The notes under the pieces are model-generated. The model was not told the DNA's origin and did no database searches. It saw only the letters and a program-made list of their open reading frames with translations. Below, piece after piece: positions 7,349-49,981 of a stretch of DNA of 64,000 nt; position 1 is the stretch's first letter, and each line of letters starts with the position of its first letter. The position numbers and the translations under genes are program-made. The stretch is from positions 1,952-65,951 of the IMG/VR virus record IMGVR_UViG_3300027836_000011. One strand, written 5' to 3'. Source of the stretch: a virus.

Positions 7349-7354
7349 AGTCAA

Positions 7355-16300: not shown

Positions 16301-19300
16301 ACTTCTTAAAGCTTTATTGTAATCAACATTAAATCTTTTATCAAATTTCTCAACATTTTTTTCAGGATTTTCAGATAAAGTTAATTGAGCTCTATCCAAT
16401 AATTCAAGAAACTTAGTATTTAAATCAATTGATTTAGCTTTTAAATTTACTAAAGCATAACTACCATCTTGCAATAATACTGCAGCTACATAAGCATCTG
16501 TTAAACTTGTAATGCTATCAAGCATTCCTTGTTTAGTTAAACTTTCTTCAACTCTATCTATAAGCTCTCTTCTTTCTTCACCTTCAAGATTTGATATAGC
16601 AACTTTAGTTCTTGAACCTCCTTTGTTATTTTCTAATTGATAAATTAAATAATTACCATTTTCATCAGCAGATTTAAATTCTAAATCATTTAATGACTTA
16701 GGTGTTTTATCATAAACAGTTATACCTGGTTTAGAAATAAAAGATAAACCACTAGGTAATTTTGAAATTGATATAACTCCATCAGGATTATTTGCTATTA
16801 ACTCAGGTAGTGCAGAACTTAATAAATTATTTAAAGCAAAATTATTTTGAGCACGCTTTAAATCTTCTTCAGTATTTACACTCATTCCTGCAGGAACATA
16901 GATTAAATTTTTATAATCTTCTGCTGTCATAGTAGAAGGATTAATAACAGTACCTTGAGAATTGGTTATTACAAAATTTGTATTTTGCATAAAACCAAAA
17001 ACACCATTTGAGGAATTACTTTTATTTAATCCACTTGCTTCAATAGCAGCATCAATCTTAGCTTGAGTTTCTGGATTAGAAGTTCTTATTCCCACTGAAT
17101 ATTTTGCTCTTACAGTTTGAATGTAAGGGTTTGCTTCTTTAAAACCAGGAATAATTAAATTACCATTGTTTACTCCACCTTCAGGGTCTAATGTAACAAC
17201 TAATTCTAGTTGGCTTAGTTCTTCAGGACTTAGCACTGACATAACTAAGTTATATCTTGCAGTTGCTTGTTCAGGACTTTCTAACCATTGATTAGTTACA
17301 ACATCTTTGTTTCTATAAGCATATGGTTGAATAGGCTCATTTATATTAAGTCTGCTGACATTTTGTGGTAAGACTTTAAGATCTAAAGCTTGAACTGTAA
17401 AAGATGCTTTAAATTCACCCTGTGCAATTTTAAATGAAGCATTTGTTGTTTCATCTATTGATGGGCTAATATCATCAGATGCTATTAACATTAATTTACG
17501 TTCTGTACCTACTTGTTTAGGTTGACTTAATACAATAAACTCTTTACCTGATAAATCATAAACTAACTGTCCATAATTTAAAGTTACATCATCAAAAATA
17601 AATTGTGTTGAATCCGGTGCAGCATTGTCTAATGTTTTTTGCATAGACAAAGCTTTTGCTTTATCACCTTCAGCAAATATACCAAAGGTAGGAATACCAT
17701 ATCTAGTTAAAGTTTCCTCATCAATTGGTTGTTTAGATTGATCTACTAACTGATATGATATAACAGTATTACCTTCTGAGTCAAGAGTTTTTAATTCAAC
17801 TAATGAAACTGTGTTTCCTTTTTTAACTGTTGTTATATTTTTGTTTCCTTCTACAGCTTCTCCTTCATTAGGTAACAATTCTGTTTGACCAGTAACATCA
17901 TCAATAGTTAAACCCAATGCATTAACAACAGATTCTACCAAGTCATTTGTTTTACCTTCCTGACTTTGCAACCATGGGATTAATCCAGCTTCAGTTCTGA
18001 TTTCTTCTTCAGTTAATGGATTATTAGGATTTATTAATTTGTCATTACTAATCCATATTTTTTTAACTGCAATGAAAGCAGCTCTATGATTTTTACCAGA
18101 CTCACTATTAACCCACTTATCAAATGTTACAGGTTTTCTTCCTGCAGTAGTTTCTTTAACTGCATATTTAGCATAAGCTTTTTTCATTGTGTTTTCTAAC
18201 ACAACTGAATCTTTAACTGATACTTCAACATCAATAATTACATTATCCAATATATCATCTACTTCATCTCTGCTTTCTTCTGCTGTTTCCTCTTCAGTTT
18301 TAACTTCTTCTACTTTTTTATCAGGTCTTGTTTGTTCATAGTCAGATAATAATCCCTGAATATCTTCCAATGCTTCTTTGTCAAAAGAAGTTAATTGTTC
18401 TCCTTTTTGATTATAAAATGTTTTTAAATATTTACTGTCTCCAGTTTCCAAAAACATTTTCATTTCAACATTGTTTGGAATATATCCCAACTTTGCAATT
18501 TGATTTGCTAATTCATTTCTCTCAATTACATCAGTATAATCACGTACTTGTTGTTCAAATATTGCCTTTCTGTTTTTGTATTGTTCTTGTAATACTTCAG
18601 CAGTTCTTTGAAATACAAGGTCAAACTTTTGAGGATCATTTAAATACTCAATTGTTTTATCATATACTTTAGCTCTACCCTGTAATGCATTATAATCTAT
18701 AATTTGTTTTAACGCAGCATCAACAGCTTCTTTATTAACAAATGTACCAGATTGTTTAGCCATGTATTTTACATAGTTTTCAAACTCTTTTCTAAGTGCA
18801 CCAATTTTTCTTTTATCAAATGAACCATCTTTAGCTTGATTCTCTTCATTCATTAATATGTTTTTGAATGCAGATAGTCTTTCAACTTTTTCTGTCTTTT
18901 CTTTTACTCTAGCAGTATTAGTTGGATCACCTGATAATATAATAGCTTCTTCAGTTAACATTTGTATTTCTTTGTCAATAGAATTTTGATCTAACAATAC
19001 TGTTAAATCATTAGCTGCCATTTTATCAAACAATGGTTCAGATACTAAATTTTGATAAATATTATTTGATCTTTCCAATGCTCTGGTAAATCCATCTTGA
19101 GTAAACATATAAAGATATCTTGCATGTTCAAATGCAACTTTCTTTATTGTTTCTTCTGTCCATTGTCTAGAACCTTTTTCAAAAGACTCTGGCATAAATG
19201 GATTTTGATATCTATCTTTTGATTGCTCATATACAGTTTCAGTTCTATCAATTTGATTAACCAAACTCTGAAGACGCTCTCTAATTTTTCCATTTTTAAT

Positions 19301-32400: not shown

Positions 32401-32947
32401 TGATCCACTCATCTGATCTTTGGTTACCTGTAAAAGAAATATAGTTTCCACCTTTAGTTGTAGATGTTACCCATCCTTCAGGAGTTAATGTATTACCTAA
32501 CCATTTTGTTTCTTTCCCTTTCTGAGCTTTCATTAAACCTTTACCACCACACTTATGACAATCCATAACATCAGATCCACCATCAGCAGCTTTCCATTTC
32601 CAACCGCAGTTACCACACTCAATAGTTTTATCTAATAGAGCACCTCCCATTTTGGCTATTAATGTTTCTGTTACTTCTGTACCTGGAAATTCATAATCAT
32701 ATCCTGGATACATTACTTGCTCATTACCTAAGTTATCTACACCGTGGATTGGTCCCTTTCTCAAAGGGCTACCATCTTTTTCTTTCATAGTAATAGAACC
32801 AGATGGAATAATGTTTTGATAATTATTTACATCTGGGCTATCCATTCTAAATCCTTCTGTAGAGAATACTCCTGTAGTATAACTAAACATTTCATTTGGG
32901 CCACCCGGTAATCCTCTACGTTCTGTATGTTGTATCTTTTTCTCCAT
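29444..32947 (-). CDS. Modular virion protein (1167 aa): Zn-ribbon, hydrophobic segment, ART-like domain, lytic transglycosylase (SLT) domain
   Basis: CGNCG...CHKCG (~32546-32618); Ala/Gly-rich hydrophobic stretch (~31850-32130); FVRGVS...ALYLSNSVPTAEGYTYGNGYIV (~31300-31570); SLT motifs LLVRQAYRESAFNPKAVSPAGYKGLGQI and LASYNWGRGNV (~30140-30430). Confidence 0.7.
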   Translation of the reverse strand: MEKKIQHTERRGLPGGPNEMFSYTTGVFSTEGFRMDSPDVNNYQNIIPSGSITMKEKDGSPLRKGPIHGVDNLGNEQVMYPGYDYEFPGTEVTETLIAKMGGALLDKTIECGNCGWKWKAADGGSDVMDCHKCGGKGLMKAQKGKETKWLGNTLTPEGWVTSTTKGGNYISFTGNQRSDEWINKQIDTGKFGFDPKTNATFPLKKPVKGLSKEDQFMATKQYHDLRAPEGFTSESQQAQIEKLPEWQQDMLNAENTKRRKRVVYNNMQDAVKNPLFYAPGAIALAPIAAAGLTAVGTAAAPYVSTALATQLPGMATVPGATVGNAITAGFAGHGLTHIGPDTAEMYKNPSWENAFNVAMDVAESLPVLGPATKTIGEGYSSLKNINTSIAPELRQGLKTAGPSFGSSVNKTGIVSNNLNDLTYAKDWAKKYGYKLPENLERIAQSDELTNRTIRGLADRHNTFVRGVSTNWDILGQKNPEIIKYLEGQGFNLTTEEGSKAAAEYMSTHIPMNTGYGRFGLKEGENALYLSNSVPTAEGYTYGNGYIVKAKRPTDFSSGNRQDWLTTNDFDPSFGFKGSPFGEGIVKNDYIKRFPTNVRETLAITGDPNKMTELQVAVKEKEALYNQLAEDSWRKHNNLISDLKYRTDANYRNNIISDDPFVRDAPNFFDKMQLKYLENKKDLTQKYYDVLPLKDIAKGVYGDSDVWKAFGKNLFGELDPFSHYAIKGQEGEKVLETLKSIKVNPEAWENTSRAHINKYTNKLTRRQDGGEKEDTSWTAYLNPANWGTSRYDDKSTFKEAFRAARNEGDSDFLWKGERYSTELKAEPAKTSAKPKGITPELLVRQAYRESAFNPKAVSPAGYKGLGQIGDAVIKDYKKANNIKGNVDPFNMKQNADVQKYSMNELYNSSFINKPGQSEDVRLAKTLASYNWGRGNVMNLLNDLKEEGVDIYNNLDWISKLPKEPRDYINDILLQKNTTFNTDFSKALGNQKNKPIKTLYGFRDGGESKPGPLMQAYNRLPAEKKMGGSVEYMKQQGGENKYSEQNGKVVVTTKKVDTPNGPRYYQAKSPDYNFSRELVDARSRTRVADSIPKANLDPRILESLNKKQFGGQLNSTNITMYKDYIKGNIGNEELAIKNYDKLNRIYYSKAKELGMTTANYIMTYIVGNS

Positions 32948-35900
32948 TATCTCATTGATAAAAGTAATTTAGTGTTATTCAATCTCAATAACATCTTTCT
33001 ATTTTCTGATTTAACTCTTCTTAAAATAACATTGTTATAATAATGTCTAAACTTTTTATGTTGTAACGGAGCCTTATTATAATTTAAATTTGTAGTATTT
33101 AAAACTTTAATGTATCCATTAGGTTGAGTATCCCATATTGATTGTTCAACGTTTGTAAATTCACCTCTATCATTAGTGATATCATAAAACTGATTGAACC
33201 TATACTTCTGTTCAACTTTAGAACATAATATGTTTATGTTATTCAAATTGACTATTGGATAACTTAACTCTAAGATAGGATTGTTATATGGTGTTGGAGT
33301 CAATTGTAATAACCCAGACACTTGCTCATTATTATAAATAATAGATTGGTCAAAGTTAAAGTTTAAATCTTCCCATCTATCATCATTACAAGCATAACCC
33401 ATATCACCTTTGTATACATAAGTCTCTAATTGATATTCCATACTTCTAACAGTATTAACCATCTGTCCAGTATTAGAAACTAATTCTACTTCCCAAGGAT
33501 AATCAACACCATAGAAATTAGCAAAACTATCACATCTAACATTATGTCTCCAAAATGAACCAACTTTGTAATTAGCTGGTGTAGACTCATATTTATAAAA
33601 ATTACAAATTTGAGGATTTGGATTTACATATGTTGGATCTCCTAGTAAATAAACATCATCACAATTTCCTGTTGTTGTTGTAACACTTCCTGGAGGAGAT
33701 GTTGGACATGCGCAACTTACTTTTCTACATACAGGTGGAGTAATGTTATTACATGTACCTGTTGGTGATGTATAAAGACTTGTTGCTGTATTAAAAAATA
33801 CTTTTGTATAACCTGGAGCACAAGTACAAACAAATGGAACTGAACAAACAGATCCTGCAATAGCTGTTGCTACAGCAGCAAATGTTGCAGGCACAGCCGC
33901 ATTAATTCCAAATTGGAATCCATCAACATTTACAGGACCTGGCGTACAAGATATATTACCTAATACATTACCACTTGGTATAGCAGTATTTGCACCACAA
34001 AATAATGCATATACTCTTTGGTTTGTTGGACCACTTGCACTTGGTGAAACACCAGTACCTTGAAATGGACAACCTATATTTCCCGGATCACTTGTTGTAT
34101 CTGTAACTAATATTATTATTTGTCTAAAAAATGGTTGTGTACTTCTATTACCTAATTGACTAGCTGCTTTATTATTTAACAATGTTTGACCAGAAGTCAT
34201 TCCTAAAGAAACATTTGTACCACCACCAATCCAGTTACCATTATACCATGCAGCAGCTTGAGCTGGAGTAACAGTATTACTCATAGACCAAGTACCCCCT
34301 GCAGGATTTGGTATATTATAATTTATATTATTACCACTCCATGAAGTAAAACCTATCTGCATTGTACCTGCAGCCATTGGTGTTGTTATATTAGAATCAC
34401 TTAAAAATGCATTTAACCATGCTAATTGTGCTTGTCTGCGTCCTCCTGAATTAGTTGATCCAGATGTATCCATTGCAATAACAATATCTATTAAACAATT
34501 AACTGGTCCACCATTAACAACAGAGTTAATTTGATCTACTGTAACAAAAGCAGGTTCATTAATATTAATAGATCTTTCACATAATCCATTAGTAGAATTA
34601 AAATTATATCCCGGAGGGCATTGCGGTATAGTAGTAGCCATAGTCTTAGTAGTAAAGAAATGGTTAATACTTGGCAATGCAAATTCCGGATGCCAGTCAT
34701 GGAATGATATCCAAGCTTTAGCTTTAGGATCATAACTTACAGTCCAAGAACAATCATCAAAATACACTGGATCACCTAATGTAATAGGGCTCTCTAATAA
34801 TGCAAAGCCTCTTTTTTCACTATATGTTACATTTGCAATATACTGAGCTTTTACTCTGTAATCTTTTTTCATAAAGTAAACTACATCATCATTAGGATCA
34901 TAGATTGTTTGACAACCAACACCAACTACAGGATTATCTGATAATGGTGAATCTTCTAATTGAGGAAACTGTTTAACAAGTTGAGATGGTAAATATTTAT
35001 TAAACCACCATTTCATTCCTGCATTAGATATTGGATCTAGTGTTTGACCAGTAAAATGAAATATTTTCCCTTGAGCTTGAGATATAAAAAATAAACCTAC
35101 AGGTGTATTCATAACACTTCTCAAACTTTCACATGAACCATATTCATTTGATATGTCTGAGTTAACAATATTTTGAAATGGTTGACTAAACAATCCTCCA
35201 TCACCAATAGTAAGTTTAGTATCTAGTTGTGTTTGCAAAGTATCTAAACCTTGAAACATCTGAGGAGATAAATAAGGAAAGAATATAATAGCACCGCTTT
35301 TATTAATTGGTTTTATAACACTCACTTCATTTATAAAATCCTTATAGTTTAATGGTAAGAATACTCTCCAAAAATCTTTTTTAGATTCTTCTTGAGCTTG
35401 TAATGAATAGATTAATCTTTTTGGATAACTGACATAACAATTTTCTGCAACATACGGATCATAGTATCTTGGTTGTATTTCACCAAAACTACTCAACTGA
35501 GTTACAAACTTAGATGGACTTAATGATTCATCATATTTATAAAAGTTATCTTTCTTTTCTATTTGAGCATGGAACAATTCATCAATATCATTATAACCAT
35601 ATACATCATATATTCTTGCATCAGCTCTATCTTCCCAATCTCTATTAGCTAAGTTAACTTCAGACTCAACAAAGAAATCTAATATACCATTAACATGCGT
35701 ATACATATAAGCATATCTCATGGCAAATTTAGGATTAGGATCACCACTAGCACCAAAGATTGCACTTAAACCAGTAGCACAACTATTTGATCCTCTATCT
35801 AAATAAAACAAATCACTAGGAAAAACAGCATCTAATTGACTAGAACTTGTAAGACTTAAACTAGCAATTTCCCCAGCCAAAGTACTCATATCAAATTTTT

Positions 35901-38900
35901 GAGAATTTAACCAAAATCTTGGATAAGGTATATTGACATGCTGAGAATAATCATATGTAAATTCATCTGGTTGACCTAATAAGTATTGTGCAAATATAGG
36001 CATGATAACTTTTTCAGTATATCTAGTAATAAATATATCACCATTAAATATAGCTGAACTAGAATACTTAAATGCCATTGGTTTAGTTGGATCTAAATAT
36101 TCTACGCAACCTCTCATTTGAATTTGCTTAATACCATCTAATTGACCATACTGATTATCAAAATTAAACTTAAGTGCACCATAGTAAGCAGATATAGTTC
36201 TTTTTTGTTTTGTTGATGGATTAGTTAAATAATCATCACTATAAACATTAACTGTACCATTAGCATTTACATCACCCCCTATGGTAAATCTAGACACATC
36301 AATTACAGTAGGTTCTGTTATAGGTTTATCTAATGAAACAGCTACGGTAGATGGTCTAAATAAATTATTAATTTTATAACTTCCATTATCAAATGATTGA
36401 AATGATTGACCTAAGTAATTTGAATCTGTATTCTTGATTCTAAATAACCCTGTATTAATTTTAGTAAATGAATTAAAAAATCCATAAGAATTATATTTAA
36501 ATGCAAAATCAGATTTATTAATTAAGTTATAAATCAATTCTAATATTTCATTTCCACCAATTGCTATATTAGTTCTAGACATTGTAAAAGAAACAAAAGC
36601 TCTTACAATTAAAGGTAAAGATGATTCTGATGAATCATTTGATTGTGCATTATTTATTGTACCACCTAACATACCAGGTGCATTACCAGCATTGGTTTGA
36701 ATAACAGCATTTGCCATATCTAATGCATATGTTGCAGCACCACCAACATAAAGATCTGCTAAACCTGCAGCATTATTTAATAATGTATTTAAAGCTATTT
36801 GACCAACAGTACCTACATTTGCAGCAGCAGCAACAGCAACTGAATAAGCTGCTTGTGCTACACCCGGTGAATTTAAATAACCTGAAGATTTTCCAAGCCA
36901 TGCACCAGTTGCACTTGCAGAAGTCATATTTGCTTTAGCACCATCTACAGTTTTAGTTCTTGTACCTAACATTTTATGTATAGCATATCCCACACCAATA
37001 ATAGAAGCTATAATAGCTGCACCATTTCTTAGTAATTTAAATTGAGGATGATCTTCAGATGCTTTAAAATAACCACTTGAATTACCACTTACTTGTCCAT
37101 AAAGTCTTGTCTCATAAGCATTTAAAAAAGGTTTAGTAAACATTAAATCTGGTGAAGAAAACGTAAATACATTTCTAGAATAACCTGAAGGTTCACCTGC
37201 TATTGCAGGAGCAGAACCTAAAGGTCTATAACTACCAATTGATATACTATAATTATCACAACCTTCAGTTCTATGAATAGAGTTTGCATTACCATCATGA
37301 AAGTAAACATCAGGTCTTAAATCATTGTATGGATAGTTTGGATATAAACCTTGAACAGAACCACCAATTAAATTTTCAGCATTAGGAATAGTATACTTAC
37401 GCATATTTCTAAACAATCCTTTTGCTAAAATAGATTTGGCACCAGCTCTAGTTCCTCTTAATATTTCATAACCAACTATATTTGTTATATATGTTCCATC
37501 ATTATTTTTTGGTCTACCAATATTAGTAAATTCAACACCAAGAATATTAATTAAATCTCCTTGTGTTGTACTTATATGCAAAGGTGAATTTGCACCCCCT
37601 ACTTCTTCAGTAGGAAACTTATGGTGTCTAATTGGTTTACCACAAAGGTCTCCCCAAATATCAGGTCTATTAGCAGGATATCTTTCTGTTGATTCCCAAT
37701 ATCCCATTTTACCTCTAGCAATAACTAATGATCCATCTGCTTGCACTTCAGTTAAATTCTGAGCTGTAATGTTTCCTGTATTATAAACCTTAAATAAAGG
37801 ATCTCCTGCAACATCTAATACATTATCACCATAGATAACATCATTTTCTAAATAAGTCCCTGAAGGGGTTGTAAATGGCTCAGGAGCTCTTCCTGGTATA
37901 TGATATGAAGAAGATCTTTCTCCTGTGTTATAAATCCATCTAATAAAAAAAGCATATTGCTCATCTCTCATGAAACCCATTTTATTACCACCTAAATGAT
38001 AATAAGTAGAATCTATTTGATTTGCTACCCAGTTAACTTTAATATCATTTGCTATTGGTTGATAATTAAAATCAAATTGACTAACAGGTCCTTGTCTAAT
38101 TAACCAATCATTTACAACATACATTGCATTTGATTTTTCATAAGCAGGACTTCTTTGAGGTATAGTTTTTAAACTTATAGCTACTAGAGCATCATCAATA
38201 TAGTCAATGTTTATATCTTCCTGTTGCGTACTATAAAGACCTATGCGTTTTGCATATACTTGACCTTGATTTCTTACAAGTAAAACCAATTCATAATAAT
38301 CAAAATCTTTATCTAAATTAGTAACTTTAACATTTAATGATCCTCCTGTACCGGCATGTGACCATAATGTTTGAATGTTAGATACACCAATATAATCAGT
38401 AACCTTTTGCTCATTTTCAGTATATGCAATAAATGCTTGATAAGCACCATTTTGTAACATACCACCATCTATTGATTTACTTAAATCAACACAAGGAGTA
38501 TCAAGTAAAGGAGCTAATCTTATCTTTTCACAATTTAATTGTGTTGTATCAGCATATGTAATACATGGATCACCAACTGCAGATGTTACAGTTTGAATCC
38601 ACGGTACCTTATCAATGTTTAATGAACGGGATGGATTGTTTCCATCATCCCAATATGTTTGCCATGTACAATCAAAATTTTCTTTTGCTGCACCAGTTAT
38701 TAAATACTTTCTATTAAAGTTTAAGCAAGGATCATTTACAATAACTTCATACTTACATTGGCTATCATCAAATCTTCCAATTTCTGAATTTACATCATCT
38801 GTAGAAAATACAACCCATTGATCACCATATCTATGTATAGCTCCAATAATTGTATAAGGAATTACACCACATTGTAAATTAGATGGTTCATTACCAATTA

Positions 38901-39057
38901 CACCTAGATCTCCATCAGTAGAATTATTTGCAGCATTACGCGCATGCCACCAACTTTCTTTTGGTTCCATTGACTGCGTAATATCTTTATTCATTCCTTT
39001 TATGAATGAATTAGTATTTACAGAAGATGTTCCTGGATTTTCATTTTGCTGTGCCAT
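32947..39057 (-). CDS. Tail stabilisation/muzzle protein (P22 gp10-like, crAss-type; 2036 aa) with an inserted VWA domain
   Basis: N-terminus NSFIKGMNKD...ARNA...GNEPSN and C-terminal WSYDPKAKAWISFHDW are typical of this family as recalled. It follows the ring genes. VWA MIDAS motif DIVIAMDTSGS at 34456-34470. TAATG stop/start overlap with the next gene. Confidence 0.72.
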   Translation of the reverse strand: MAQQNENPGTSSVNTNSFIKGMNKDITQSMEPKESWWHARNAANNSTDGDLGVIGNEPSNLQCGVIPYTIIGAIHRYGDQWVVFSTDDVNSEIGRFDDSQCKYEVIVNDPCLNFNRKYLITGAAKENFDCTWQTYWDDGNNPSRSLNIDKVPWIQTVTSAVGDPCITYADTTQLNCEKIRLAPLLDTPCVDLSKSIDGGMLQNGAYQAFIAYTENEQKVTDYIGVSNIQTLWSHAGTGGSLNVKVTNLDKDFDYYELVLLVRNQGQVYAKRIGLYSTQQEDINIDYIDDALVAISLKTIPQRSPAYEKSNAMYVVNDWLIRQGPVSQFDFNYQPIANDIKVNWVANQIDSTYYHLGGNKMGFMRDEQYAFFIRWIYNTGERSSSYHIPGRAPEPFTTPSGTYLENDVIYGDNVLDVAGDPLFKVYNTGNITAQNLTEVQADGSLVIARGKMGYWESTERYPANRPDIWGDLCGKPIRHHKFPTEEVGGANSPLHISTTQGDLINILGVEFTNIGRPKNNDGTYITNIVGYEILRGTRAGAKSILAKGLFRNMRKYTIPNAENLIGGSVQGLYPNYPYNDLRPDVYFHDGNANSIHRTEGCDNYSISIGSYRPLGSAPAIAGEPSGYSRNVFTFSSPDLMFTKPFLNAYETRLYGQVSGNSSGYFKASEDHPQFKLLRNGAAIIASIIGVGYAIHKMLGTRTKTVDGAKANMTSASATGAWLGKSSGYLNSPGVAQAAYSVAVAAAANVGTVGQIALNTLLNNAAGLADLYVGGAATYALDMANAVIQTNAGNAPGMLGGTINNAQSNDSSESSLPLIVRAFVSFTMSRTNIAIGGNEILELIYNLINKSDFAFKYNSYGFFNSFTKINTGLFRIKNTDSNYLGQSFQSFDNGSYKINNLFRPSTVAVSLDKPITEPTVIDVSRFTIGGDVNANGTVNVYSDDYLTNPSTKQKRTISAYYGALKFNFDNQYGQLDGIKQIQMRGCVEYLDPTKPMAFKYSSSAIFNGDIFITRYTEKVIMPIFAQYLLGQPDEFTYDYSQHVNIPYPRFWLNSQKFDMSTLAGEIASLSLTSSSQLDAVFPSDLFYLDRGSNSCATGLSAIFGASGDPNPKFAMRYAYMYTHVNGILDFFVESEVNLANRDWEDRADARIYDVYGYNDIDELFHAQIEKKDNFYKYDESLSPSKFVTQLSSFGEIQPRYYDPYVAENCYVSYPKRLIYSLQAQEESKKDFWRVFLPLNYKDFINEVSVIKPINKSGAIIFFPYLSPQMFQGLDTLQTQLDTKLTIGDGGLFSQPFQNIVNSDISNEYGSCESLRSVMNTPVGLFFISQAQGKIFHFTGQTLDPISNAGMKWWFNKYLPSQLVKQFPQLEDSPLSDNPVVGVGCQTIYDPNDDVVYFMKKDYRVKAQYIANVTYSEKRGFALLESPITLGDPVYFDDCSWTVSYDPKAKAWISFHDWHPEFALPSINHFFTTKTMATTIPQCPPGYNFNSTNGLCERSININEPAFVTVDQINSVVNGGPVNCLIDIVIAMDTSGSTNSGGRRQAQLAWLNAFLSDSNITTPMAAGTMQIGFTSWSGNNINYNIPNPAGGTWSMSNTVTPAQAAAWYNGNWIGGGTNVSLGMTSGQTLLNNKAASQLGNRSTQPFFRQIIILVTDTTSDPGNIGCPFQGTGVSPSASGPTNQRVYALFCGANTAIPSGNVLGNISCTPGPVNVDGFQFGINAAVPATFAAVATAIAGSVCSVPFVCTCAPGYTKVFFNTATSLYTSPTGTCNNITPPVCRKVSCACPTSPPGSVTTTTGNCDDVYLLGDPTYVNPNPQICNFYKYESTPANYKVGSFWRHNVRCDSFANFYGVDYPWEVELVSNTGQMVNTVRSMEYQLETYVYKGDMGYACNDDRWEDLNFNFDQSIIYNNEQVSGLLQLTPTPYNNPILELSYPIVNLNNINILCSKVEQKYRFNQFYDITNDRGEFTNVEQSIWDTQPNGYIKVLNTTNLNYNKAPLQHKKFRHYYNNVILRRVKSENRKMLLRLNNTKLLLSMR

Positions 39058-39075: not shown

Positions 39076-40017
39076 TTAATGTGTAGGATTGTTAATACTA
39101 CTGGATGTATTAATTCCTTTATGAAGTCTTGGATTATAAGGAGCATGACTCATGAACATATTATAATAATTATGATATTGAGCTCTTCTATTCATAACAA
39201 AGACTTTTTGCATTTCAGCAAAATCTGGTGTATTTACAAATGACAATGCATTATTTCTTGCAGGTCTTAAACGTGCTTCAACCAATTGCAATTGAGGAGA
39301 CATTTGTTCACCTTGCCAAATCATATTCTCTAATATTCTTTGTTTCAATGCATATTCATAATACTCATTACAAAGAGGTTGATCAAGAACTAATAAATCT
39401 CCATCAGGTGATTCCATGGCTCCTTGATAACTTATATAAACTCTACCACTAGTAAAATTAGTAATTAAAAAACCATCAACTATTTGTGCAATGTCTGGAG
39501 CTTGTGCTGCCAAATCAGGACAAAAACAACTCTTCTGATTTATATCTTGAATTTTTAATTCAGTCCAAGTACTATAAGTTCTATATTGATTTGGAGAAAT
39601 CCTTTGAACTAACTGATAGCTATTTTTATCTTCACATGTTTTAACTACACATACATCAGCACACCCTTCTCCTGTACTACATGCTGCAACTTCTCCAGGT
39701 GCTGGTACATAAGGTACATCATTGAATGTTTCAACATGTGTACCAGAAGGCATTGTTGCATTAACATGATATTCACCACAAAGAAATGCATAATTAATAT
39801 ATGCAAAATCTCTAGGTAATTGAGCTCTACCATGCTCTACATCAATTATAGTTTCTTTAGTTCTATGTATTTTTAAACCAAGTTCATAATTAATTCTAGT
39901 AGCAACTTTAATTAATTGCTGTGGTTCAATCATTCCTTCTAATGAATAGGTTGTAAAGTCAACCGCAACATCTTCATATAATTGACTGAATGTTCTATAT
40001 TTATGTGATACGCTCAT
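39076..40017 (-). CDS. Tail ring/tubular protein (P22 gp4-like, crAss-type; 313 aa)
   Basis: Directly upstream of the muzzle gene. C-terminal GRVYISYQG...DGDLLVLDQP...YYEYALKQRILEN pattern recalled from crAss-like ring proteins. Confidence 0.6.
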   Translation of the reverse strand: MSVSHKYRTFSQLYEDVAVDFTTYSLEGMIEPQQLIKVATRINYELGLKIHRTKETIIDVEHGRAQLPRDFAYINYAFLCGEYHVNATMPSGTHVETFNDVPYVPAPGEVAACSTGEGCADVCVVKTCEDKNSYQLVQRISPNQYRTYSTWTELKIQDINQKSCFCPDLAAQAPDIAQIVDGFLITNFTSGRVYISYQGAMESPDGDLLVLDQPLCNEYYEYALKQRILENMIWQGEQMSPQLQLVEARLRPARNNALSFVNTPDFAEMQKVFVMNRRAQYHNYYNMFMSHAPYNPRLHKGINTSSSINNPTH

Positions 40018-40694
40018 TATCTATTTATGTTTTGTTTATTATCAGAATCTTCACTTGGTACCTTCATTGTATTCATCATAATATTTATGATTTGAGATTC
40101 AATTTCTGCAAACATTGCTTCAGGTATATACATTGGTTGTTTATATCTAGGAGTACAATCATCTTTTTCATCACAATTCCATTTTGTAATATCATCATTA
40201 TATACACCTTCAACTTTAATGGCATCCCATTCAATATTAGGTGAATAAATATATCCATCCAACCACCAAAAATATTTTGTTCTGTTGTATTTAAAAGATG
40301 TTGTTTTAGTCATGGATGTATATGTTCCAGGATATGTTGCTTGAAGTTCTTGTGAACCATCTATTGAAGTTACAGTACGTATAAGTGGACCCCAATAACC
40401 TTCAATCATAGAAGGTAATCTTAGTTTTGTACGTTTGATTGTACATCCACTAGTTATTCCAGAACAGCCTGCTTCTACTTTATCAACATCAATTAATTCT
40501 ACATATGGAAGTGCTTTCCATACTGAATTAAATTTCATCAATTTATTTAATGAGTCTTGTCTTCTCATTAAAACTTGAGCAAACTTTTCTATTAAACTGT
40601 AGATGTATCTGTCTGTTACAAAAGAATCTTGGACTTCAGCTTTAACCTGTCCTCTTATTCTTGATATTGCCTCTCCTATTATTATCTGTGACAT
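40017..40694 (-). CDS. Putative tail ring/adaptor protein (225 aa)
   Basis: Sits between the HU-like gene and the 313-aa ring gene, with a TAATG overlap. Ends KYNRTKYFWWLDGYIY...VEGVY...IPEAMFAEI...VPSEDSDN, a ring-protein-like pattern. Confidence 0.55.
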   Translation of the reverse strand: MSQIIIGEAISRIRGQVKAEVQDSFVTDRYIYSLIEKFAQVLMRRQDSLNKLMKFNSVWKALPYVELIDVDKVEAGCSGITSGCTIKRTKLRLPSMIEGYWGPLIRTVTSIDGSQELQATYPGTYTSMTKTTSFKYNRTKYFWWLDGYIYSPNIEWDAIKVEGVYNDDITKWNCDEKDDCTPRYKQPMYIPEAMFAEIESQIINIMMNTMKVPSEDSDNKQNINR

Positions 40695-42682: not shown

Positions 42683-43243
42683 TTATACTGCTAGTGTAGA
42701 AAATAAAATTTCTATTGGCTCACATGATCCTGAATTACCAGCATCAACCACTTTTACTTTATATGCTGTACTAGCTAAAAGGTTTGTTATTGTATAATTA
42801 AATATTGTTGTTACTATAGGTGTTGGATTAGCTAAAATCCATGCACCAGGAGCAATCTGTGTATTATAATAAATGTTAACTCCGGTGCTTCCGCTCCAAG
42901 TACCATTCCATAATACTGATGCTGTACTGCTTGTGATAATACCTGCATATACATTGAATGGATCATGTTGTACATCATTAGAAGTACATGCACCCAAACC
43001 ATTTGATAATATCATAGCAAATTTTTGTATAATAGAATCAAGTCTTTCACCTTTAGATATTTGCAATAATGATCCTGGGTTACCTATTTGAAAAGAAGTT
43101 CCACAATAGCTAACACATTCTGCACATTGTACATCATCACATCTTTCACTACCAACACTACAGTCAGTATATGTACATGGGTTTGTTAATGCTGTATCAG
43201 CACAACCACATTTACTACTACATTTTGAACAATTACATGCCAT
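42683..43243 (-). CDS. Cys-rich putative structural protein with a C-terminal fibronectin type III-like domain (186 aa)
   Basis: 11 Cys in the first 47 aa. C-terminal ITSSTASVLW...YTITNLLASTAYKVKV fits an FN3 pattern. Confidence 0.5.
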   Translation of the reverse strand: MACNCSKCSSKCGCADTALTNPCTYTDCSVGSERCDDVQCAECVSYCGTSFQIGNPGSLLQISKGERLDSIIQKFAMILSNGLGACTSNDVQHDPFNVYAGIITSSTASVLWNGTWSGSTGVNIYYNTQIAPGAWILANPTPIVTTIFNYTITNLLASTAYKVKVVDAGNSGSCEPIEILFSTLAV

Positions 43244-43255
43244 CTTTATATTTTA

Positions 43256-45514
43256 TTAAGGTTGAGCACAACCATTAGTAATTAATGAATTTACAGTTGC
43301 TGTTGAATAAGATGCATTCCATGCACCATTAGTTGTTGTTGCAAATGTTCTCCAAGGATAAACCACATTTCCAGCAGAAACTGTATAAGTAGCATTAACA
43401 CCTGCACCTAATACAAAACATTTGATACCTTCTAATAAACAAGTTTGAGCTAAAGAGTTTAATCTTGTTATATCAGTAGCCGTAAAGTTATCATCATCTC
43501 CACTAGGTAAAACATCTGTGTAAATCAATAAATATCTTGCAACATTAGCTCTAAATGCTCCAGCAAATTGTAATGATTCTACAACAAATCCAATTGCCAT
43601 ATCTGTAGGTTCTGGTGTACCACCACCTTCACCTAATGGCCAATATACAGGAGCAGGTCCACCGGCAGCATCTGGACCATTATCAATTTTATTTAATTGA
43701 GCTGTAAATGATGTATTATTATTTGTTGCAAATTTCTCTACTGCAGTAATATATTGCCATCTACTAGCCCCTGTATTTATAACTCTTTGATCAGCAGGTA
43801 ATGCTACATAATCATTTGAAGTAAGATACGTAGGTGTAGCATCATAACCTTCATCTGCTAAAACTAAAGCTAATCTATAATCATTAGCTCCAGATGCTGA
43901 TTGTATTGTAGTTATTGTAGATGGTATACCGGCTTTGATTGTATCAATTGTTCCACTCATACTACCTGTAAAGTCTACTAAAAATACAACATCTAATCCA
44001 TTACTACATGGAGCAGCTGCTGTTTCTGTATCAAATGCTACTGTTGCTGTACATACTTTAGTTACTCCACCTACTTGAATAGTTATTCTAGTAGTATAAT
44101 TTGTACCTGCAACTAAACCTGTAAAGGCATGTGTAACTGTAGGTCCAGGAGAATTTTGTGTAAATGTACCCGCAACAACACTTGTTGTTGTATTAAGAAT
44201 ATCTATAATATAAACTGGTGTTACACCCAACATATTTGAAAATGTAACTGTAGCTCCTGTAGTTGTAATTGAACTTATCACTGGTAATGGGCATGGTATA
44301 ACTCCGTCAACTGATTTAACTATTGTATCATTACAAGTATCTCTGCCATCTGTAACACAGAAGGCAACACTTGTAGTTAATCCACCATATGTATTTAAAC
44401 CTGGTAAAGATATAGTAACTCCTGATGCTGAATTTTGTAAAGATGAAACACTTACGGTACTTGTTACTGAAACGTTTAAACTATCTGTAATAGTAATAAT
44501 TGTACTACCAGCACAATCATTAAATGTTGCAGGTATAACAGAACCATTTCCTGTTGTATTTTGAAAATTAAAATTAAGACCTGCTATAGTACCTTCACCA
44601 CTTAATACATTTGATGTATTATATCCAAAGGTTACGTTTTCACAACCTGAAGGACAGCAGTTAGTTTGAATACTTGAAACAGCTTCATACATATCACATA
44701 ACACAGCCCATATATTTTGTGTGCTTTGTGCTAAATTTATTGGAGTATTATTCCATCCTGGTATTGAACCATATGATACTGAAGGATCAGCTAATGTAGT
44801 TGTAGTTGATAATATGCAAGAACCTTGACTAATAGCAGCATTAATTGCAGCAGGTAAACCTACTGCTGTTTCTAAAGCGCAAAATCTTGCTTCTAAAGCA
44901 AGTAGTAAAACAGACACATCTGTTAATTGACCAACATTAATTATACATGTTGGAACAACTTGTGTTTCTGCTGCAGCACCTGAACATGGTAATACACATG
45001 CTTCTAGTACTGATATTCTAGTATTATAATTAGTTAATGTTGTTTCAATATAAACTATTGCAACAAGTATATCACAAACTTTATTTGCTATTAAAAGAGT
45101 AAAGTCATCTAAACGTAATTGTGTAACTGGATTTCCTGATGGGTCATTATAAACCAAACATGCAGGTAAAGTCATTACGGGAAGATTCTGTTTAATGTAT
45201 GTTGCACTAGGATCTGATGGTCCATTATCTGCACATATTGCATTAATCATTTCCTGTAAAACAGGAACTAACGTAGTAGGTGTAGTACCTGGTATATTAA
45301 GACAAGTCATGTCTAATCCAGTTAAATTAGGATTAGCGGTTACACCTTCCTCAATTAATGAACATACCAGTTCAGCTAACTTAGCAGTTACATCACTAAT
45401 TGTATCTCCATTACAAAGATTTATACAACTGATATCTGGACCCTGCCAAATGACACAATTGGATGAAATGCTATCACAGCCGTTTGTAGTATTGCTTGAA
45501 TTTGTTGGTATCAT
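43256..45514 (-). CDS. Cys-rich putative structural protein with coiled coil, FN3-like and C-terminal VWA domains (752 aa)
   Basis: N-terminal CDSISSNCVIWQG...C repeats; FN3-like ITTTGATVTF...FTGLVAGTNYTTRI (~44060-44290); VWA DVVFLVDFTGSM (43961-43975) and LIYTD. Confidence 0.6.
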   Translation of the reverse strand: MIPTNSSNTTNGCDSISSNCVIWQGPDISCINLCNGDTISDVTAKLAELVCSLIEEGVTANPNLTGLDMTCLNIPGTTPTTLVPVLQEMINAICADNGPSDPSATYIKQNLPVMTLPACLVYNDPSGNPVTQLRLDDFTLLIANKVCDILVAIVYIETTLTNYNTRISVLEACVLPCSGAAAETQVVPTCIINVGQLTDVSVLLLALEARFCALETAVGLPAAINAAISQGSCILSTTTTLADPSVSYGSIPGWNNTPINLAQSTQNIWAVLCDMYEAVSSIQTNCCPSGCENVTFGYNTSNVLSGEGTIAGLNFNFQNTTGNGSVIPATFNDCAGSTIITITDSLNVSVTSTVSVSSLQNSASGVTISLPGLNTYGGLTTSVAFCVTDGRDTCNDTIVKSVDGVIPCPLPVISSITTTGATVTFSNMLGVTPVYIIDILNTTTSVVAGTFTQNSPGPTVTHAFTGLVAGTNYTTRITIQVGGVTKVCTATVAFDTETAAAPCSNGLDVVFLVDFTGSMSGTIDTIKAGIPSTITTIQSASGANDYRLALVLADEGYDATPTYLTSNDYVALPADQRVINTGASRWQYITAVEKFATNNNTSFTAQLNKIDNGPDAAGGPAPVYWPLGEGGGTPEPTDMAIGFVVESLQFAGAFRANVARYLLIYTDVLPSGDDDNFTATDITRLNSLAQTCLLEGIKCFVLGAGVNATYTVSAGNVVYPWRTFATTTNGAWNASYSTATVNSLITNGCAQP

Positions 45515-47326: not shown

Positions 47327-49981
47327 TTATTTTATTAATTTAGTTATTAATTCTTTTAGCTCATCTATTTGTTTTTGCTGTTCTTTGATAGCTTCAAACA
47401 TTACAGCTACAGCATTTTGATATTTAACGGCTTTAGTTCCATCTTGATTAGTAACAACTAATTCAGGAAAAGCAACTTCTAATTCTTGTGCAATAAATCC
47501 AATATTATCTTTACTTCCACTATCAGTTCTATCATACAATACACCTCTTGATTTTTGTACTCTTTCAATTACATTTTCAATTGGTCTAATATTTTCTTTT
47601 ACAGATTGATCTGAGTATGCTACAATATCATAATCAGCATAAATAGATATACTACCTACTTGTGTAGTAATTCTTAATGGATAGGATGATGTATTACTTG
47701 CACCAATGGTAATATAACCATTATTATCAATCCACATTCTAGGTAAAGGGTTTGTACCATAACCTGTAGAAGAAGTCATTAGTTTTAATATACCACCACC
47801 ATTTGAACCACTACTAGTACTACCTGCTGAAATAGCTTCAATAGCTGCACTTGTATATCCAACAGTTGAATCATCTTTTCCAGTAAATTGTATTCTACCC
47901 AATGATGTACCAGATACAACATTTGTGTTAAGACTTCTTATATCTAAAACACCACCAGAAGCATTTGCTACTGTTAATTGTGGAAGAAGTCCATAATTAG
48001 GTGTACCAACATCTGTTGTACCAATTGTTACTTGACCTGCATTACTAAAAAACACATGACCAGCACTACTAACTATAAGATTTTTTGTACTTACTGTATC
48101 ATCAATAACTAAATCTGAAGTACCATTTAATGACATAGTCCATTCAGGTACTGTTGATCCAGCTAATACTCCAAAATATACTGCATTTCTAACAAATACA
48201 TTACCTTGTACATCTAATTTTGCACCTACACTAGTTCCTCCAATTGATATTTGTGTACCGTTTTGATATATCTGACTACTTGCAAGAGTTGTTGCAGCTG
48301 AAAAAACTGGAATATAATTAGTTGCACCAGATCCACCAATACCTCCACCACCAGAACCATTTGAAGCTGCTGTAATTCTACCTTGAGCATCTACAGTAAT
48401 ATTAGTATTAGTATAAGATCCTGCAGTAACTGCTGTATTAGCTAAAGCAATAGTTCCTGAAGATGTTATTGTTCCACCGCTTAACCCTGTACCCGCTACA
48501 ATACTTGTAACTGTTCCTGCATTTCCTGTTAGTAAAACACCATTAGCTGTAATAGAACCTGCAGTTCTAAAAGAAGAGGAATTGAAAGCTACCCATGCGC
48601 CACTCATTACTCCTGCAAAACCTGATGTTGCAGTACCAAACCAAAATGAATTTGCACCAAGGCTTAATGCTCCATTGGTTCCTGTTATTCCAAATCCTGC
48701 TCCTATGTTTCCTGCTCTAGTTAAACCATAATAACTATAGTTCAAAGCACTAGCTGGTTCAGTAACAGCTACTGTTCCATATGGATCCGCACCTGAACCG
48801 TTACCTGCTATATTAAGAATATTTCCTGTAAAACCATTTGCAGTCATATTTCCATTAGAAGGATTTATTTTTACAGAACCTATAGTATAAAGAAATTCAG
48901 ATGTTGGAGATCCATTATTAGAATCCACAAAAGTTAAATAATAATCAGCATTAGTAGAAACAAAAGTTGTATTAACAGAAGATGCATTACCTGTTATGTT
49001 AATACCCCAAGTACCACTTGCATTACCACCTGTTAAAGTTGGAGAATAAGAATTATAGTTACTTGAAGAAAGCATTGTTTGCCAACTATTCCATGTAGTA
49101 TCAATACCATTTCTTAATAATAACTGAGCCGGACCTGATGCATTTACACCACTTTGGTTAGCAAAAGCTAATTGATAAGATGAGTCACCAGTACTTGCAC
49201 TAGTGCCATCCCACGGTCTATAAGTCATTACACCTGCATAATTACCCGTAGCTCCTGTAATTGATCCTGCACCAGCAAAATCAAATTGTACAGCACGTGG
49301 TGGATTACCATTAGGTAATTTATTACCCGCAATTCTATCACCATCAGGTGAAGATACATATAAAGAAATATTTGAACTACCCGAACTTCCTGTAACACTA
49401 ATTGGCCATGTACCTGTTGCACCTGAACCATTATTTTCAGGATATCTTCCATCTAAATCTACAGTTAAAGAAGATAATCCATTTCTACCTAAAGTTAAAA
49501 TACCTGTTGCAGTATCCCAACCTAAACTTGTTGGGTAATTATTACTATCAACATAACTTGATGCTATGGTAATTGTATCTGTAGTTGCATTTGTTGTAAT
49601 GGTTACGTTTGAACCAGCAACCAAAGTAAGTGTATCATTATTAGTATCAGCAACAACTGTTGACTGACCAGATACAGCAAAGTTTTTAAATATAGCTTGA
49701 GAGGATCCTAAGTCAGTATTTGTAATTGTAATGTTTGGTGTTGTAGTAGCATTGGCAACTGATGCAGAAATACCAGTACCATTGGTTACCGCAACACTAG
49801 TTACTGTGCCACTACCTGTGCCTGCTCCAATATCAGAACGCACTTGAGCGGCAGTTCTATATTTAACTAAACCTCCATCTGAAACTAAAAATGTGTTTGA
49901 TGCTGTGGCTAAATTAGCTATAGTTGATACAGTTAATGTACCCGCTTGTATATTTTGACTGGTTAAAAATCTTATTGCCAT
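47327..49981 (-). CDS. Tail fibre with C-terminal intramolecular chaperone (peptidase S74-like), 884 aa
   Basis: Gly/Thr/Ser-rich repeats. C-terminal YSDQSVKENIRPI...GFIAQELEVAFPELV...AVKYQ...EAIKEQQKQIDELK is the canonical ICA/S74 signature. Confidence 0.85.
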   Translation of the reverse strand: MAIRFLTSQNIQAGTLTVSTIANLATASNTFLVSDGGLVKYRTAAQVRSDIGAGTGSGTVTSVAVTNGTGISASVANATTTPNITITNTDLGSSQAIFKNFAVSGQSTVVADTNNDTLTLVAGSNVTITTNATTDTITIASSYVDSNNYPTSLGWDTATGILTLGRNGLSSLTVDLDGRYPENNGSGATGTWPISVTGSSGSSNISLYVSSPDGDRIAGNKLPNGNPPRAVQFDFAGAGSITGATGNYAGVMTYRPWDGTSASTGDSSYQLAFANQSGVNASGPAQLLLRNGIDTTWNSWQTMLSSSNYNSYSPTLTGGNASGTWGINITGNASSVNTTFVSTNADYYLTFVDSNNGSPTSEFLYTIGSVKINPSNGNMTANGFTGNILNIAGNGSGADPYGTVAVTEPASALNYSYYGLTRAGNIGAGFGITGTNGALSLGANSFWFGTATSGFAGVMSGAWVAFNSSSFRTAGSITANGVLLTGNAGTVTSIVAGTGLSGGTITSSGTIALANTAVTAGSYTNTNITVDAQGRITAASNGSGGGGIGGSGATNYIPVFSAATTLASSQIYQNGTQISIGGTSVGAKLDVQGNVFVRNAVYFGVLAGSTVPEWTMSLNGTSDLVIDDTVSTKNLIVSSAGHVFFSNAGQVTIGTTDVGTPNYGLLPQLTVANASGGVLDIRSLNTNVVSGTSLGRIQFTGKDDSTVGYTSAAIEAISAGSTSSGSNGGGILKLMTSSTGYGTNPLPRMWIDNNGYITIGASNTSSYPLRITTQVGSISIYADYDIVAYSDQSVKENIRPIENVIERVQKSRGVLYDRTDSGSKDNIGFIAQELEVAFPELVVTNQDGTKAVKYQNAVAVMFEAIKEQQKQIDELKELITKLIK

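What the first reader, a model, noticed from the sequence alone, without database searches (positions are those of the whole stretch)
33600..34640. VWA (MIDAS) domain flanked by EGF-like Cys motifs inserted into the tail muzzle protein
Seen: QCPPGYNF...GLCER, then DIVIAMDTSGS...IGFTSW...GGTNVSLG...IILVTD (a complete Rossmann VWA with MIDAS), then CTCAPGY...C...C...CAC...C...C, after which the conserved muzzle C-terminus resumes (FWRHN). C-x-P-G-Y units beside a VWA domain recall eukaryotic matrix/adhesion proteins. Inference: a metal-dependent adhesion module at the tail tip, an unusual place for a receptor-binding domain.
Basis: partly seen in the sequence, partly recalled or inferred. Interest (0 to 1): 0.65.

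Follow-up and report, generated by a model that had tools for sequence, protein, structure and literature searches.

The report
Swappable metal-binding adhesion domain on phage muzzle
The tail-end "muzzle" protein of this uncultured crAss-like phage carries a genuine integrin-type, metal-dependent adhesion (VWA) domain on a cysteine-rich stalk, at a site where related phages carry nothing or other binding-type modules, so it is probably an exchangeable accessory host-attachment device.

Summary
Observation confirmed. The 2036-aa ORF at 32947-39057 (-) is a crAss muzzle protein (Pfam PF25731). Its residues 1521-1743 fold as a VWA domain (VIA Z 18.7). All five MIDAS residues are present and invariant in 110 of 110 VWA-bearing homologues.

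The interpretation needs correcting on three points:
- The Cys-rich CPPGY / CxCxPGY segments are not part of the VWA cassette. Relatives about 85-88% identical lack exactly the 223-aa VWA and keep both Cys segments. "EGF-like" is not supported; all Pfam hits are sub-threshold.
- The VWA-less forms are nested at four or more places among the closest VWA-bearing relatives. Two deletion junctions compared at DNA level differ, so they look like repeated in-frame losses.
- The site lies in the C-terminal beta-propeller part of the muzzle, not in the distal "crass" domain.

Across 72 complete IMG/VR relatives this site holds:
- a MIDAS-intact VWA in 60;
- a MIDAS-degenerate VWA in 3;
- other modules in 4 (PA14/CBM-like and ConA-like, leads only);
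- nothing in 5.

The insert evolves faster than its flanks (dN/dS 0.18-0.49 against 0.04-0.19) but stays under purifying selection.

Best reading: an exposed, dispensable, metal-dependent accessory adhesin. The scan had already noted VWA-in-muzzle insertions in several other genomes. I found no paper describing it.

The parts
32947..39057 (-). Muzzle protein gene (2036 aa, P0001).
   Evidence: Pfam crAss_MUZ PF25731 at 105 bits against a cut-off of 27. The C-terminal part of a close relative folds like the crAss001 muzzle 7QOK_A (Z 15.7, 312 residues aligned) and matches 7QOL_P/7QOK_A by Foldseek at E 6e-8. Ring 1 and Ring 2 genes lie directly upstream.
34687..34713 (-). Conserved propeller strand WISFHDWHP (residues 1449-1457), the upstream anchor of the variable site.
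   Evidence: W, S, F, H, D, W and P are invariant in the 56-sequence alignment A2. The segment lies within the model range matched by beta-propellers.
34498..34623 (-). N-terminal Cys-rich stalk segment (residues 1479-1520): a CPPGY...C hairpin followed by a beta-hairpin.
   Evidence: C1480 and C1493 are at least 95% conserved. The segment is retained in VWA-less relatives. It is predicted as beta-hairpins with pLDDT 86-92. The only Pfam hits are sub-threshold CBM_14 matches on the equivalent CP(P)G-type hairpin of four relatives.
33829..34497 (-). VWA domain (residues 1521-1743), the dispensable cassette.
   Evidence: Exactly this block is missing in 1812-1815-aa relatives that are 84-88% identical in their best local alignment to the C-terminal 637 residues of the query. 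pLDDT is above 90. Z is 18.7 to the Mfa5 vWF domain, 18.2 to CMG2 and 18.1 to collagen VI. The bracketing C1521 and C1738 are at least 95% conserved.
34456..34470 (-). MIDAS motif D-x-S-x-S (D1530, S1532, S1534).
   Evidence: Invariant in 110 of 110 VWA-bearing homologues. Aligned to the integrin alpha1 D-G-S-N-S motif in the profile search.
34216..34218 (-). MIDAS Thr (T1614, in the GGGT motif).
   Evidence: Invariant in 110 of 110 VWA-bearing homologues.
34099..34101 (-). MIDAS Asp (D1653, in LVTD).
   Evidence: Invariant in 110 of 110 VWA-bearing homologues.
33556..33828 (-). C-terminal Cys-rich stalk segment (residues 1744-1834), with eight conserved Cys, starting CxCxPGY.
   Evidence: All eight Cys are at least 95% conserved. 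The segment is retained in VWA-less forms and absent only in L066. EGF and TSP1 Pfam hits are all below threshold.
33541..33555 (-). FWRHN (residues 1835-1839), where the conserved propeller resumes.
   Evidence: H, N and the following R are invariant in A2.

Best explanation
Six copies of a MIDAS-intact VWA domain, one per muzzle subunit, are displayed on a disulfide-rich beta-hairpin stalk. The stalk grows out of a loop in the C-terminal beta-propeller part of the muzzle. The copy number assumes the hexamer seen in crAss001.

The domain most likely works like pilus-tip and integrin-type VWA adhesins. A divalent cation, abundant in seawater, is held by D1530, S1532, S1534, T1614 and D1653, and an acidic group of a host-surface ligand completes its coordination. 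This would give metal-dependent, accessory or secondary attachment close to the tail channel, in addition to the tail fibres.

The stalk is a display site. Related phages carry a VWA, other binding-type beta-sandwich modules, or nothing there.

Shown here: the fold, the MIDAS conservation, dispensability, module replacement at the same site, faster but still purifying evolution, and the position within the propeller region. Inferred: surface exposure, metal binding, that the ligand is on the host, and the effect on host range.
For: - Fold: VIA Z 18.7-16 to VWA adhesins (Mfa5, CMG2, collagen VI, integrin I-domains, SpaC). Foldseek top hits are SpaC, CMG2 and C2a. The profile search against PDB sequences gives E 1e-5.
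- MIDAS: all five residues are invariant in 110 of 110 homologues down to about 50% identity.
- Dispensable and peripheral: relatives lack exactly residues 1523-1745 in frame, with different junctions in different lineages. They are nested at four or more places in the closest clade.
- Module hotspot: of 72 complete IMG/VR relatives, 60 have an intact VWA, 3 a degenerate one, 4 other modules and 5 nothing. The alternatives give PA14/CBM-type and ConA-like leads.
- Evolution typical of host-contact parts: VWA identity is 47% against 75% in the flanks. dN/dS is 0.18-0.49 against 0.04-0.19.
- The flanks belong to the muzzle propeller: 7QOK_A Z 15.7, with podophage nozzles and generic propellers covering the same range.
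- The crAss001 muzzle was proposed to contact the cell surface, and its tail is disulfide-stabilised (PMC10172136).
Against: - No binding or metal data exist.
- Exposure in the hexamer was not modelled.
- VWA folds also serve intracellular and structural protein-protein contacts. TFIIH p44 and Rpn10 score Z 16-17 in the same list, so fold alone does not prove adhesion to a host.
- Three relatives keep the fold but have lost MIDAS residues, so metal dependence is not universal.
- Phages without the domain evidently persist, so it is not essential.
- The identities of the alternative modules are sub-threshold leads only.
Confidence: 0.6

Rival explanations
1. The VWA is a structural protein-protein connector within the virion. 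Its MIDAS would clasp an acidic residue of a fibre, a hub protein or a neighbouring muzzle subunit, rather than a host molecule.
For: VWA domains commonly mediate complex assembly; TFIIH, the proteasome subunit Rpn10 and NorD are in the hit list at Z 15-17. In T7-like nozzles, from general knowledge, the propeller region docks fibres. The window also encodes a separate Cys-rich FN3/VWA-like 752-aa protein.
Against: The domain has been cleanly lost several times in near-identical phages. The fibre's N-terminal anchor (about 200 aa, 80% identical) is present in one VWA-less relative (G002) and in VWA-bearing relatives (G003, G007). The same site carries unrelated beta-sandwich modules elsewhere. 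The domain evolves faster than its flanks, which is unusual for a fixed intra-virion interface.
Confidence: 0.15
2. The VWA adheres to non-host material such as marine gels, particles, algal polysaccharide or matrix proteins. This would concentrate virions where particle-attached Bacteroidota live, analogous to Ig-like capsid domains that bind mucus.
For: Relatives come from ocean data sets, including TARA records. The best sequence match in the PDB is the mussel byssus matrix protein PTMP1. The alternative modules look carbohydrate-binding.
Against: The position at the tail end beside the DNA exit favours a role in infection. The variation pattern matches that of the tail fibre, which is a host-range determinant. 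There is no direct evidence either way.
Confidence: 0.15
3. The VWA acts as a cation-dependent conformational switch. Open and closed MIDAS states would couple ligand or ion sensing to opening of the propeller gate, rather than serving mainly as an anchor.
For: The insertion sits in the propeller, the domain that carries the gate loop in crAss001. From established knowledge, integrin I-domains transmit MIDAS occupancy to their C-terminal helix. Conserved Cys residues bracket the domain.
Against: VWA-less and other-module variants must gate without it. Three variants have lost MIDAS. Which blade carries the insertion was not determined.
Confidence: 0.1

Closest known systems
VWA (vWF-A / integrin I-type) adhesin domains of bacterial pilus tips and of metazoan receptors: P. 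gingivalis Mfa5 (6TNJ), L. rhamnosus SpaC (6M48), CMG2/ANTXR2, collagen VI N-domains, integrin alpha1 I-domain.
   Same: The same alpha/beta fold (Z 18.7-16.4, rmsd 2.7-3.2, 170-184 residues aligned). A complete DxSxS...T...D MIDAS aligned to the integrin motif. Displayed at the end of an attachment organelle. Conserved Cys at both domain ends, as I recall for vWF A1 and A3.
   Different: Sequence identity is only 12-19%. The window's own sequence is below the Pfam thresholds. The single-sequence search of 1.84 billion representatives returned 49 hits, of which I read the long ones as muzzle-type proteins and the short ones as their fragments, but I did not check them individually. The domain is embedded in a phage tail-channel protein rather than a pilin or receptor. 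Ligand and metal are unknown.
Muzzle protein gp44 of Bacteroides phage crAss001 (PDB 7QOK/7QOL; Bayfield et al. 2023, PMC10172136).
   Same: The Pfam crAss_MUZ N-terminus matches, and hhalign aligns residues 19-393 to gp44 8-396. The C-terminal propeller region matches structurally (Z 15.7). The gene order ring-ring-muzzle-cargo is the same.
   Different: The protein is 2036 aa against 1371 aa. gp44 has no VWA and, as far as sequence shows, no Cys-rich stalk. The paper places length variation in the crass and IG2 regions, whereas this variable site is in the C-terminal propeller part. No C-terminal sequence alignment to gp44 could be obtained.
Modular receptor-binding tips of phage fibres and tailspikes, with a conserved anchor and exchangeable distal domains.
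   Same: Conserved flanks with a swappable, fast-evolving, binding-type module. This phage's own fibre shows the same pattern.
   Different: Here the exchange happens inside a loop of the tail-channel (nozzle or muzzle) protein, between Cys-rich connector hairpins. It is not at the C-terminus of a trimeric fibre.

Membership tests
VWA / vWA-like superfamily | Rossmann-like alpha/beta fold with a central beta-sheet flanked by helices. | tested here: met
   The AF2 model has pLDDT above 90 over residues 1519-1742. VIA Z is 18.7 with 179 residues aligned at rmsd 2.9 to 6TNJ, and about 50 VWA chains score Z above 14. Foldseek gives E 2e-8 to 1e-5.
VWA / vWA-like superfamily | MIDAS residues DxSxS, Thr and Asp at the C-terminal ends of the strands. 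| tested here: met
   D1530, S1532, S1534, T1614 and D1653 are present. They are invariant in 110 of 110 homologues. The DxSxS aligns to the integrin alpha1 motif.
VWA / vWA-like superfamily | Sequence-level match above the curated Pfam threshold (PF00092 / PF13519). | tested here: inconclusive
   The window's own sequence scores VWA_2 17.0 bits against 27 and VWA 13.5 against 23.8, both below the cut-off. Homologues P0116 and P0117 carry a precomputed PF00092 annotation. The family profile hits PDB VWA chains at E 1e-5.
VWA / vWA-like superfamily | Divalent-cation binding and cation-dependent ligand binding. | not testable with these tools
   This needs biochemistry or a solved structure.
Crassvirales muzzle protein (PF25731, crAss001 gp44-like) | Family profile match together with the nozzle-type beta-propeller fold. 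| tested here: met
   105.1 bits against a cut-off of 27. 7QOK_A Z 15.7 and 7QOL_P at E 6e-8 for the C-terminal region of a close relative.
Crassvirales muzzle protein (PF25731, crAss001 gp44-like) | Genomic position after the ring-protein genes and before the cargo and RNAP genes. | tested here: met
   CrAss_Ring_1 at 39079-40017 and CrAss_Ring_2 at 40020-40694 lie upstream. An SLT-domain 1167-aa protein lies downstream.
   cEGF 11.7 bits against 26.6; the EGF_DL_JAG, JAG1-like_EGF2 and TSP1 hits are all below their cut-offs, and the same holds for relatives. By direct reading the spacing after CxCxxGY is about 20 residues, not the 4-8 I recall for the PROSITE EGF pattern (not looked up here).
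PA14 / CBM-type beta-sandwich (alternative module in L045, L063, L068) | Profile or fold match above threshold. | tested here: inconclusive
   Pfam PA14 at E 0.0045 and 17.2 bits against 24. The three-sequence profile against the PDB gives a CBM at E 0.037 and PA14 proteins at 0.25-0.83. The Atlas feature score is 0.90 to a cluster in which 13% of members carry PA14. No fold was predicted.

The most novel reading that the evidence does not exclude
The Cys-rich stalk in the muzzle propeller of marine crAss-like phages is a dedicated display socket. Binding modules (MIDAS VWA, PA14/CBM-like, ConA-like) are exchanged or dropped there. This would give these podophages a second, tail-channel-proximal host-recognition system that is independent of the fibres, with a cation-dependent VWA as its default state.
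Probability: 0.45. Interest if true: 0.7.

Novelty: new variant of a known kind. Interest (0 to 1): 0.55.

Why it matters
Hosts and receptors of crAss-like phages are largely unknown, and the muzzle is their least understood virion part. A conserved socket that displays a metal-dependent adhesin, or alternative binding modules, in most ocean relatives gives a concrete way to test how these phages recognise cells. The isolated domain could be expressed and used as bait for host ligands. Natural VWA-bearing and VWA-less sister genomes could be compared for host links. The finding also extends the idea of exchangeable receptor-binding modules from fibres to the nozzle or muzzle protein itself.

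Tried and rejected
- phmmer of the whole protein and of the insert against PDB sequences gave no hits. A family profile was needed.
- hhalign of the family alignment against crAss001 gp44 aligned only the N-terminus. The residue-level position of the insertion in gp44, and the blade number, could not be set. Model coordinates are not exposed to scripts, so burial and distances, including the proposed C1521-C1738 disulfide, were not measured.
A VWA-less relative was obtained through the search for related loci instead.
- A diversity-generating retroelement targeting the insert is rejected: no template/variable-type repeat in the window, only chance-level families.
- A link between the VWA and a particular fibre type is unresolved: the fibre's distal parts differ in VWA-bearing and VWA-less relatives alike, and there are too few complete genomes.
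- Pfam on the alternative modules gave only sub-threshold hits. phmmer of the L045 and L047 modules against the PDB gave nothing useful.
- The second VWA-like region, in the 752-aa protein, is not the donor of the muzzle VWA. The muzzle-VWA HMM does not detect it.
- Literature: no paper holds both "muzzle protein" and "von Willebrand". The VWA/MIDAS/phage-tail search returned mainly CobT-type or unrelated VWA papers.

Full report
**What is there**

The finding lies in one minus-strand ORF, 32947-39057, encoding 2036 aa. The protein matches Pfam crAss_MUZ (PF25731, 105 bits against a cut-off of 27) and two PHROG virion-protein families. Directly upstream are CrAss_Ring_1 and CrAss_Ring_2 genes. 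Downstream is an SLT-domain 1167-aa protein. A fibre gene with an S74 chaperone lies at 47330-49981.

The window is part of a 74,940-bp virus record. The nearest cultured relatives are only about 25% identical; they are phages of Leptolyngbya, Cellulophaga and Flavobacterium, plus one gut crAss-like phage. Many close relatives come from ocean data sets such as TARA. This is therefore an uncultured, probably marine, crAss-like phage.

All quoted motifs are at the stated positions. On the window's own sequence Pfam VWA and VWA_2 are sub-threshold, and phmmer against the PDB finds nothing. Three stronger lines settle the matter:
- A 55-sequence family profile hits solved VWA domains by sequence: PTMP1 at 1e-5 and integrin alpha1 I-domain at 5e-5. 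The DxSxS aligns to the integrin motif.
- An AlphaFold2 model of residues 1400-2036 has pLDDT above 90 across residues about 1519-1742, with alternating strands and helices.
- That model matches VWA domains at Z 18.7 (Mfa5), 18.2 (CMG2), 18.1 (collagen VI), 17.6 (integrin alpha1) and about 50 more above Z 14. Foldseek agrees.

D1530, S1532, S1534, T1614 and D1653 are invariant in all 110 VWA-bearing homologues examined, down to about 50% identity.

**What is inserted, and what is not**

The homologue search returned ten proteins of 1812-1815 aa. They are 84-88% identical to the query in their best local alignment but cover only about half of the query region. Alignment shows that they lack exactly the VWA block. 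Both Cys-rich segments, QCPPGY...C...hairpin and CxCxPGY...eight Cys, remain.

At DNA level L005 joins ...AAT TGT TTA directly to TGC GCA CCT, removing codons 1523-1745 in frame. L003 and L020 have a different junction that keeps ...P-F-I-C.

On a tree built from the flanks only, nine scorable VWA-less proteins fall at four or more separate places inside the 31-leaf clade closest to the window. All deeper branches carry the VWA. In this clade the VWA is therefore the older state, and it has been deleted, or recombined away, repeatedly. One relative, L066, lacks the C-terminal Cys segment as well.

The Cys-rich segments are thus a resident stalk, and the VWA is a cassette nested in it. The "EGF-like" label is not supported: every EGF, TSP1 or CBM14 hit is below threshold.

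**A module hotspot**

I scanned 75 IMG/VR loci obtained with a VWA-less query. Of these, 72 have a complete C-terminus. Using an HMM of the VWA block, they divide as follows:
- 60 carry a VWA with DxSxS.
- 3 carry a VWA-like block with lost MIDAS residues (L026, L042, L068).
- 4 carry other modules and no VWA.
- 5 carry nothing.

The other modules sit between extra copies of the CP(P)GY/F...C hairpin. L045, L063 and part of L068 share a block with weak but concordant PA14/CBM signals:
- Pfam PA14 at E 0.0045.
- A profile against the PDB giving a CBM at 0.037 and PA14 proteins at 0.25-0.83.
- An Atlas feature score of 0.90.

L047 and L061 carry a block of about 450 aa whose Atlas neighbours are ConA-like or glycoside-hydrolase accessory domains, all below 0.9. 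These identities are leads, not findings.

**Evolutionary rate**

At intermediate divergence the propeller flanks are 74-76% identical to the window. The VWA is 47% identical and the Cys segments 52-53%.

Pairwise dN/dS against eight relatives is 0.18-0.49 for the VWA and 0.04-0.19 for the flanking propeller. The domain is functional, being under purifying selection with invariant MIDAS and Cys residues, but it changes several-fold faster than its scaffold. No DGR-type repeat explains this.

**Where on the muzzle**

I folded the last 714 aa of the VWA-less relative (L005; pLDDT 72.6). Its best PDB matches are the crAss001 muzzle, at Foldseek E 6e-8 and VIA Z 15.7 with 312 residues aligned. Next come podophage nozzle proteins (Pa223, GP4, SU10, Pam1, VP1). 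Generic beta-propellers cover model residues about 124-528.

The variable site (model residues about 368-506) and its invariant anchors (WISFHDWHP and FWRHN) lie inside that range. The insertion is therefore in the C-terminal propeller portion. Bayfield et al. place length variation in the crass and IG2 regions, and name the crass domain as the likely cell-contact surface.

Sequence alignment to gp44 failed in this region, so the blade is undetermined. Exposure is inferred from three things: dispensability, tolerance of inserts of 0 to more than 800 aa, and the disulfide-rich nature of the stalk.

**Mechanism**

Most likely (0.6): an exposed, metal-dependent accessory adhesin that binds a host-surface ligand near the DNA exit, exchangeable with other binding modules.

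Rivals:
- An intra-virion connector (0.15). This is weakened by repeated clean loss and by a conserved fibre N-terminal anchor found both in a VWA-less relative (G002) and in VWA-bearing relatives.
- Adhesion to marine particles or polymers (0.15).
- A cation-dependent trigger for gate opening (0.1).

Fold similarity alone cannot separate these, because intracellular VWA proteins score nearly as high.

**Novelty**

The scan had already noted VWA-in-muzzle insertions in several other genomes, and one follow-up reached a similar reading. My tests here independently agree that most ocean relatives have the domain and that it is the fastest-changing part.

I found no paper that mentions both the muzzle protein and von Willebrand domains. 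BFVD lists structurally similar "stabilization protein" entries from uncultured podoviruses and an uncharacterised protein of Virus NIOZ-UU157.

I rate this a new variant of known kinds: a VWA adhesin, a crAss muzzle, and modular receptor-binding parts. The added points are the nested stalk-and-cassette anatomy, the repeated loss, and the module-swap socket in the propeller.

**Limits**

- There is no experimental evidence.
- No multimer model was made.

Noticed in passing
window 43259-45514 (-), with neighbour 42686-43243 (-): A separate 752-aa Cys-rich protein has a second VWA-like region at residues about 505-710 (LDVVFLVDFTGS, GGGT, YTD). Pfam VWA is sub-threshold at E 0.007, and there is an fn3-like part. 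It is unrelated in sequence to the muzzle VWA. The 186-aa neighbour has an fn3 hit at E 0.0011. The virion may therefore carry two different MIDAS-type modules.
   Followed up: partly
window about 36500-37020 (-), muzzle residues about 680-850: An Ala/Gly-rich, hydrophobic, poorly conserved stretch inside the muzzle protein includes a transmembrane-like run (AAIIASIIGVGYAI). It could be a membrane-active or flexible segment of the crass-domain region.
   Followed up: no
window 47330-49981 (-): The tail-fibre gene carries a C-terminal S74 intramolecular chaperone. Its first 200 aa or so are conserved at 80% in close relatives. The distal part is replaced, with ORFs of 1154, 1207 and 1807 aa in the relatives, which is classic receptor-binding-domain swapping.
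   Followed up: partly
window 7358-21478 (-) and 1574-7354 (-): A 4707-aa ORF has no Pfam hit at E 0.001. From its position it is presumably the virion RNA polymerase polyprotein. A 1927-aa ORF has a PD-(D/E)XK nuclease domain at E 1.5e-6.
   Followed up: no
L068:6582-9080 (+); L042:6546-8201 (+); L026: These relatives keep the VWA-like block at the muzzle site but have lost MIDAS residues: QADDS or DASTA in place of DxSxS, and HVTG, HVTS or HLSR in place of xxTD. L068 combines this block with a PA14-like module and 36 Cys in an 833-aa insert.
   Followed up: partly
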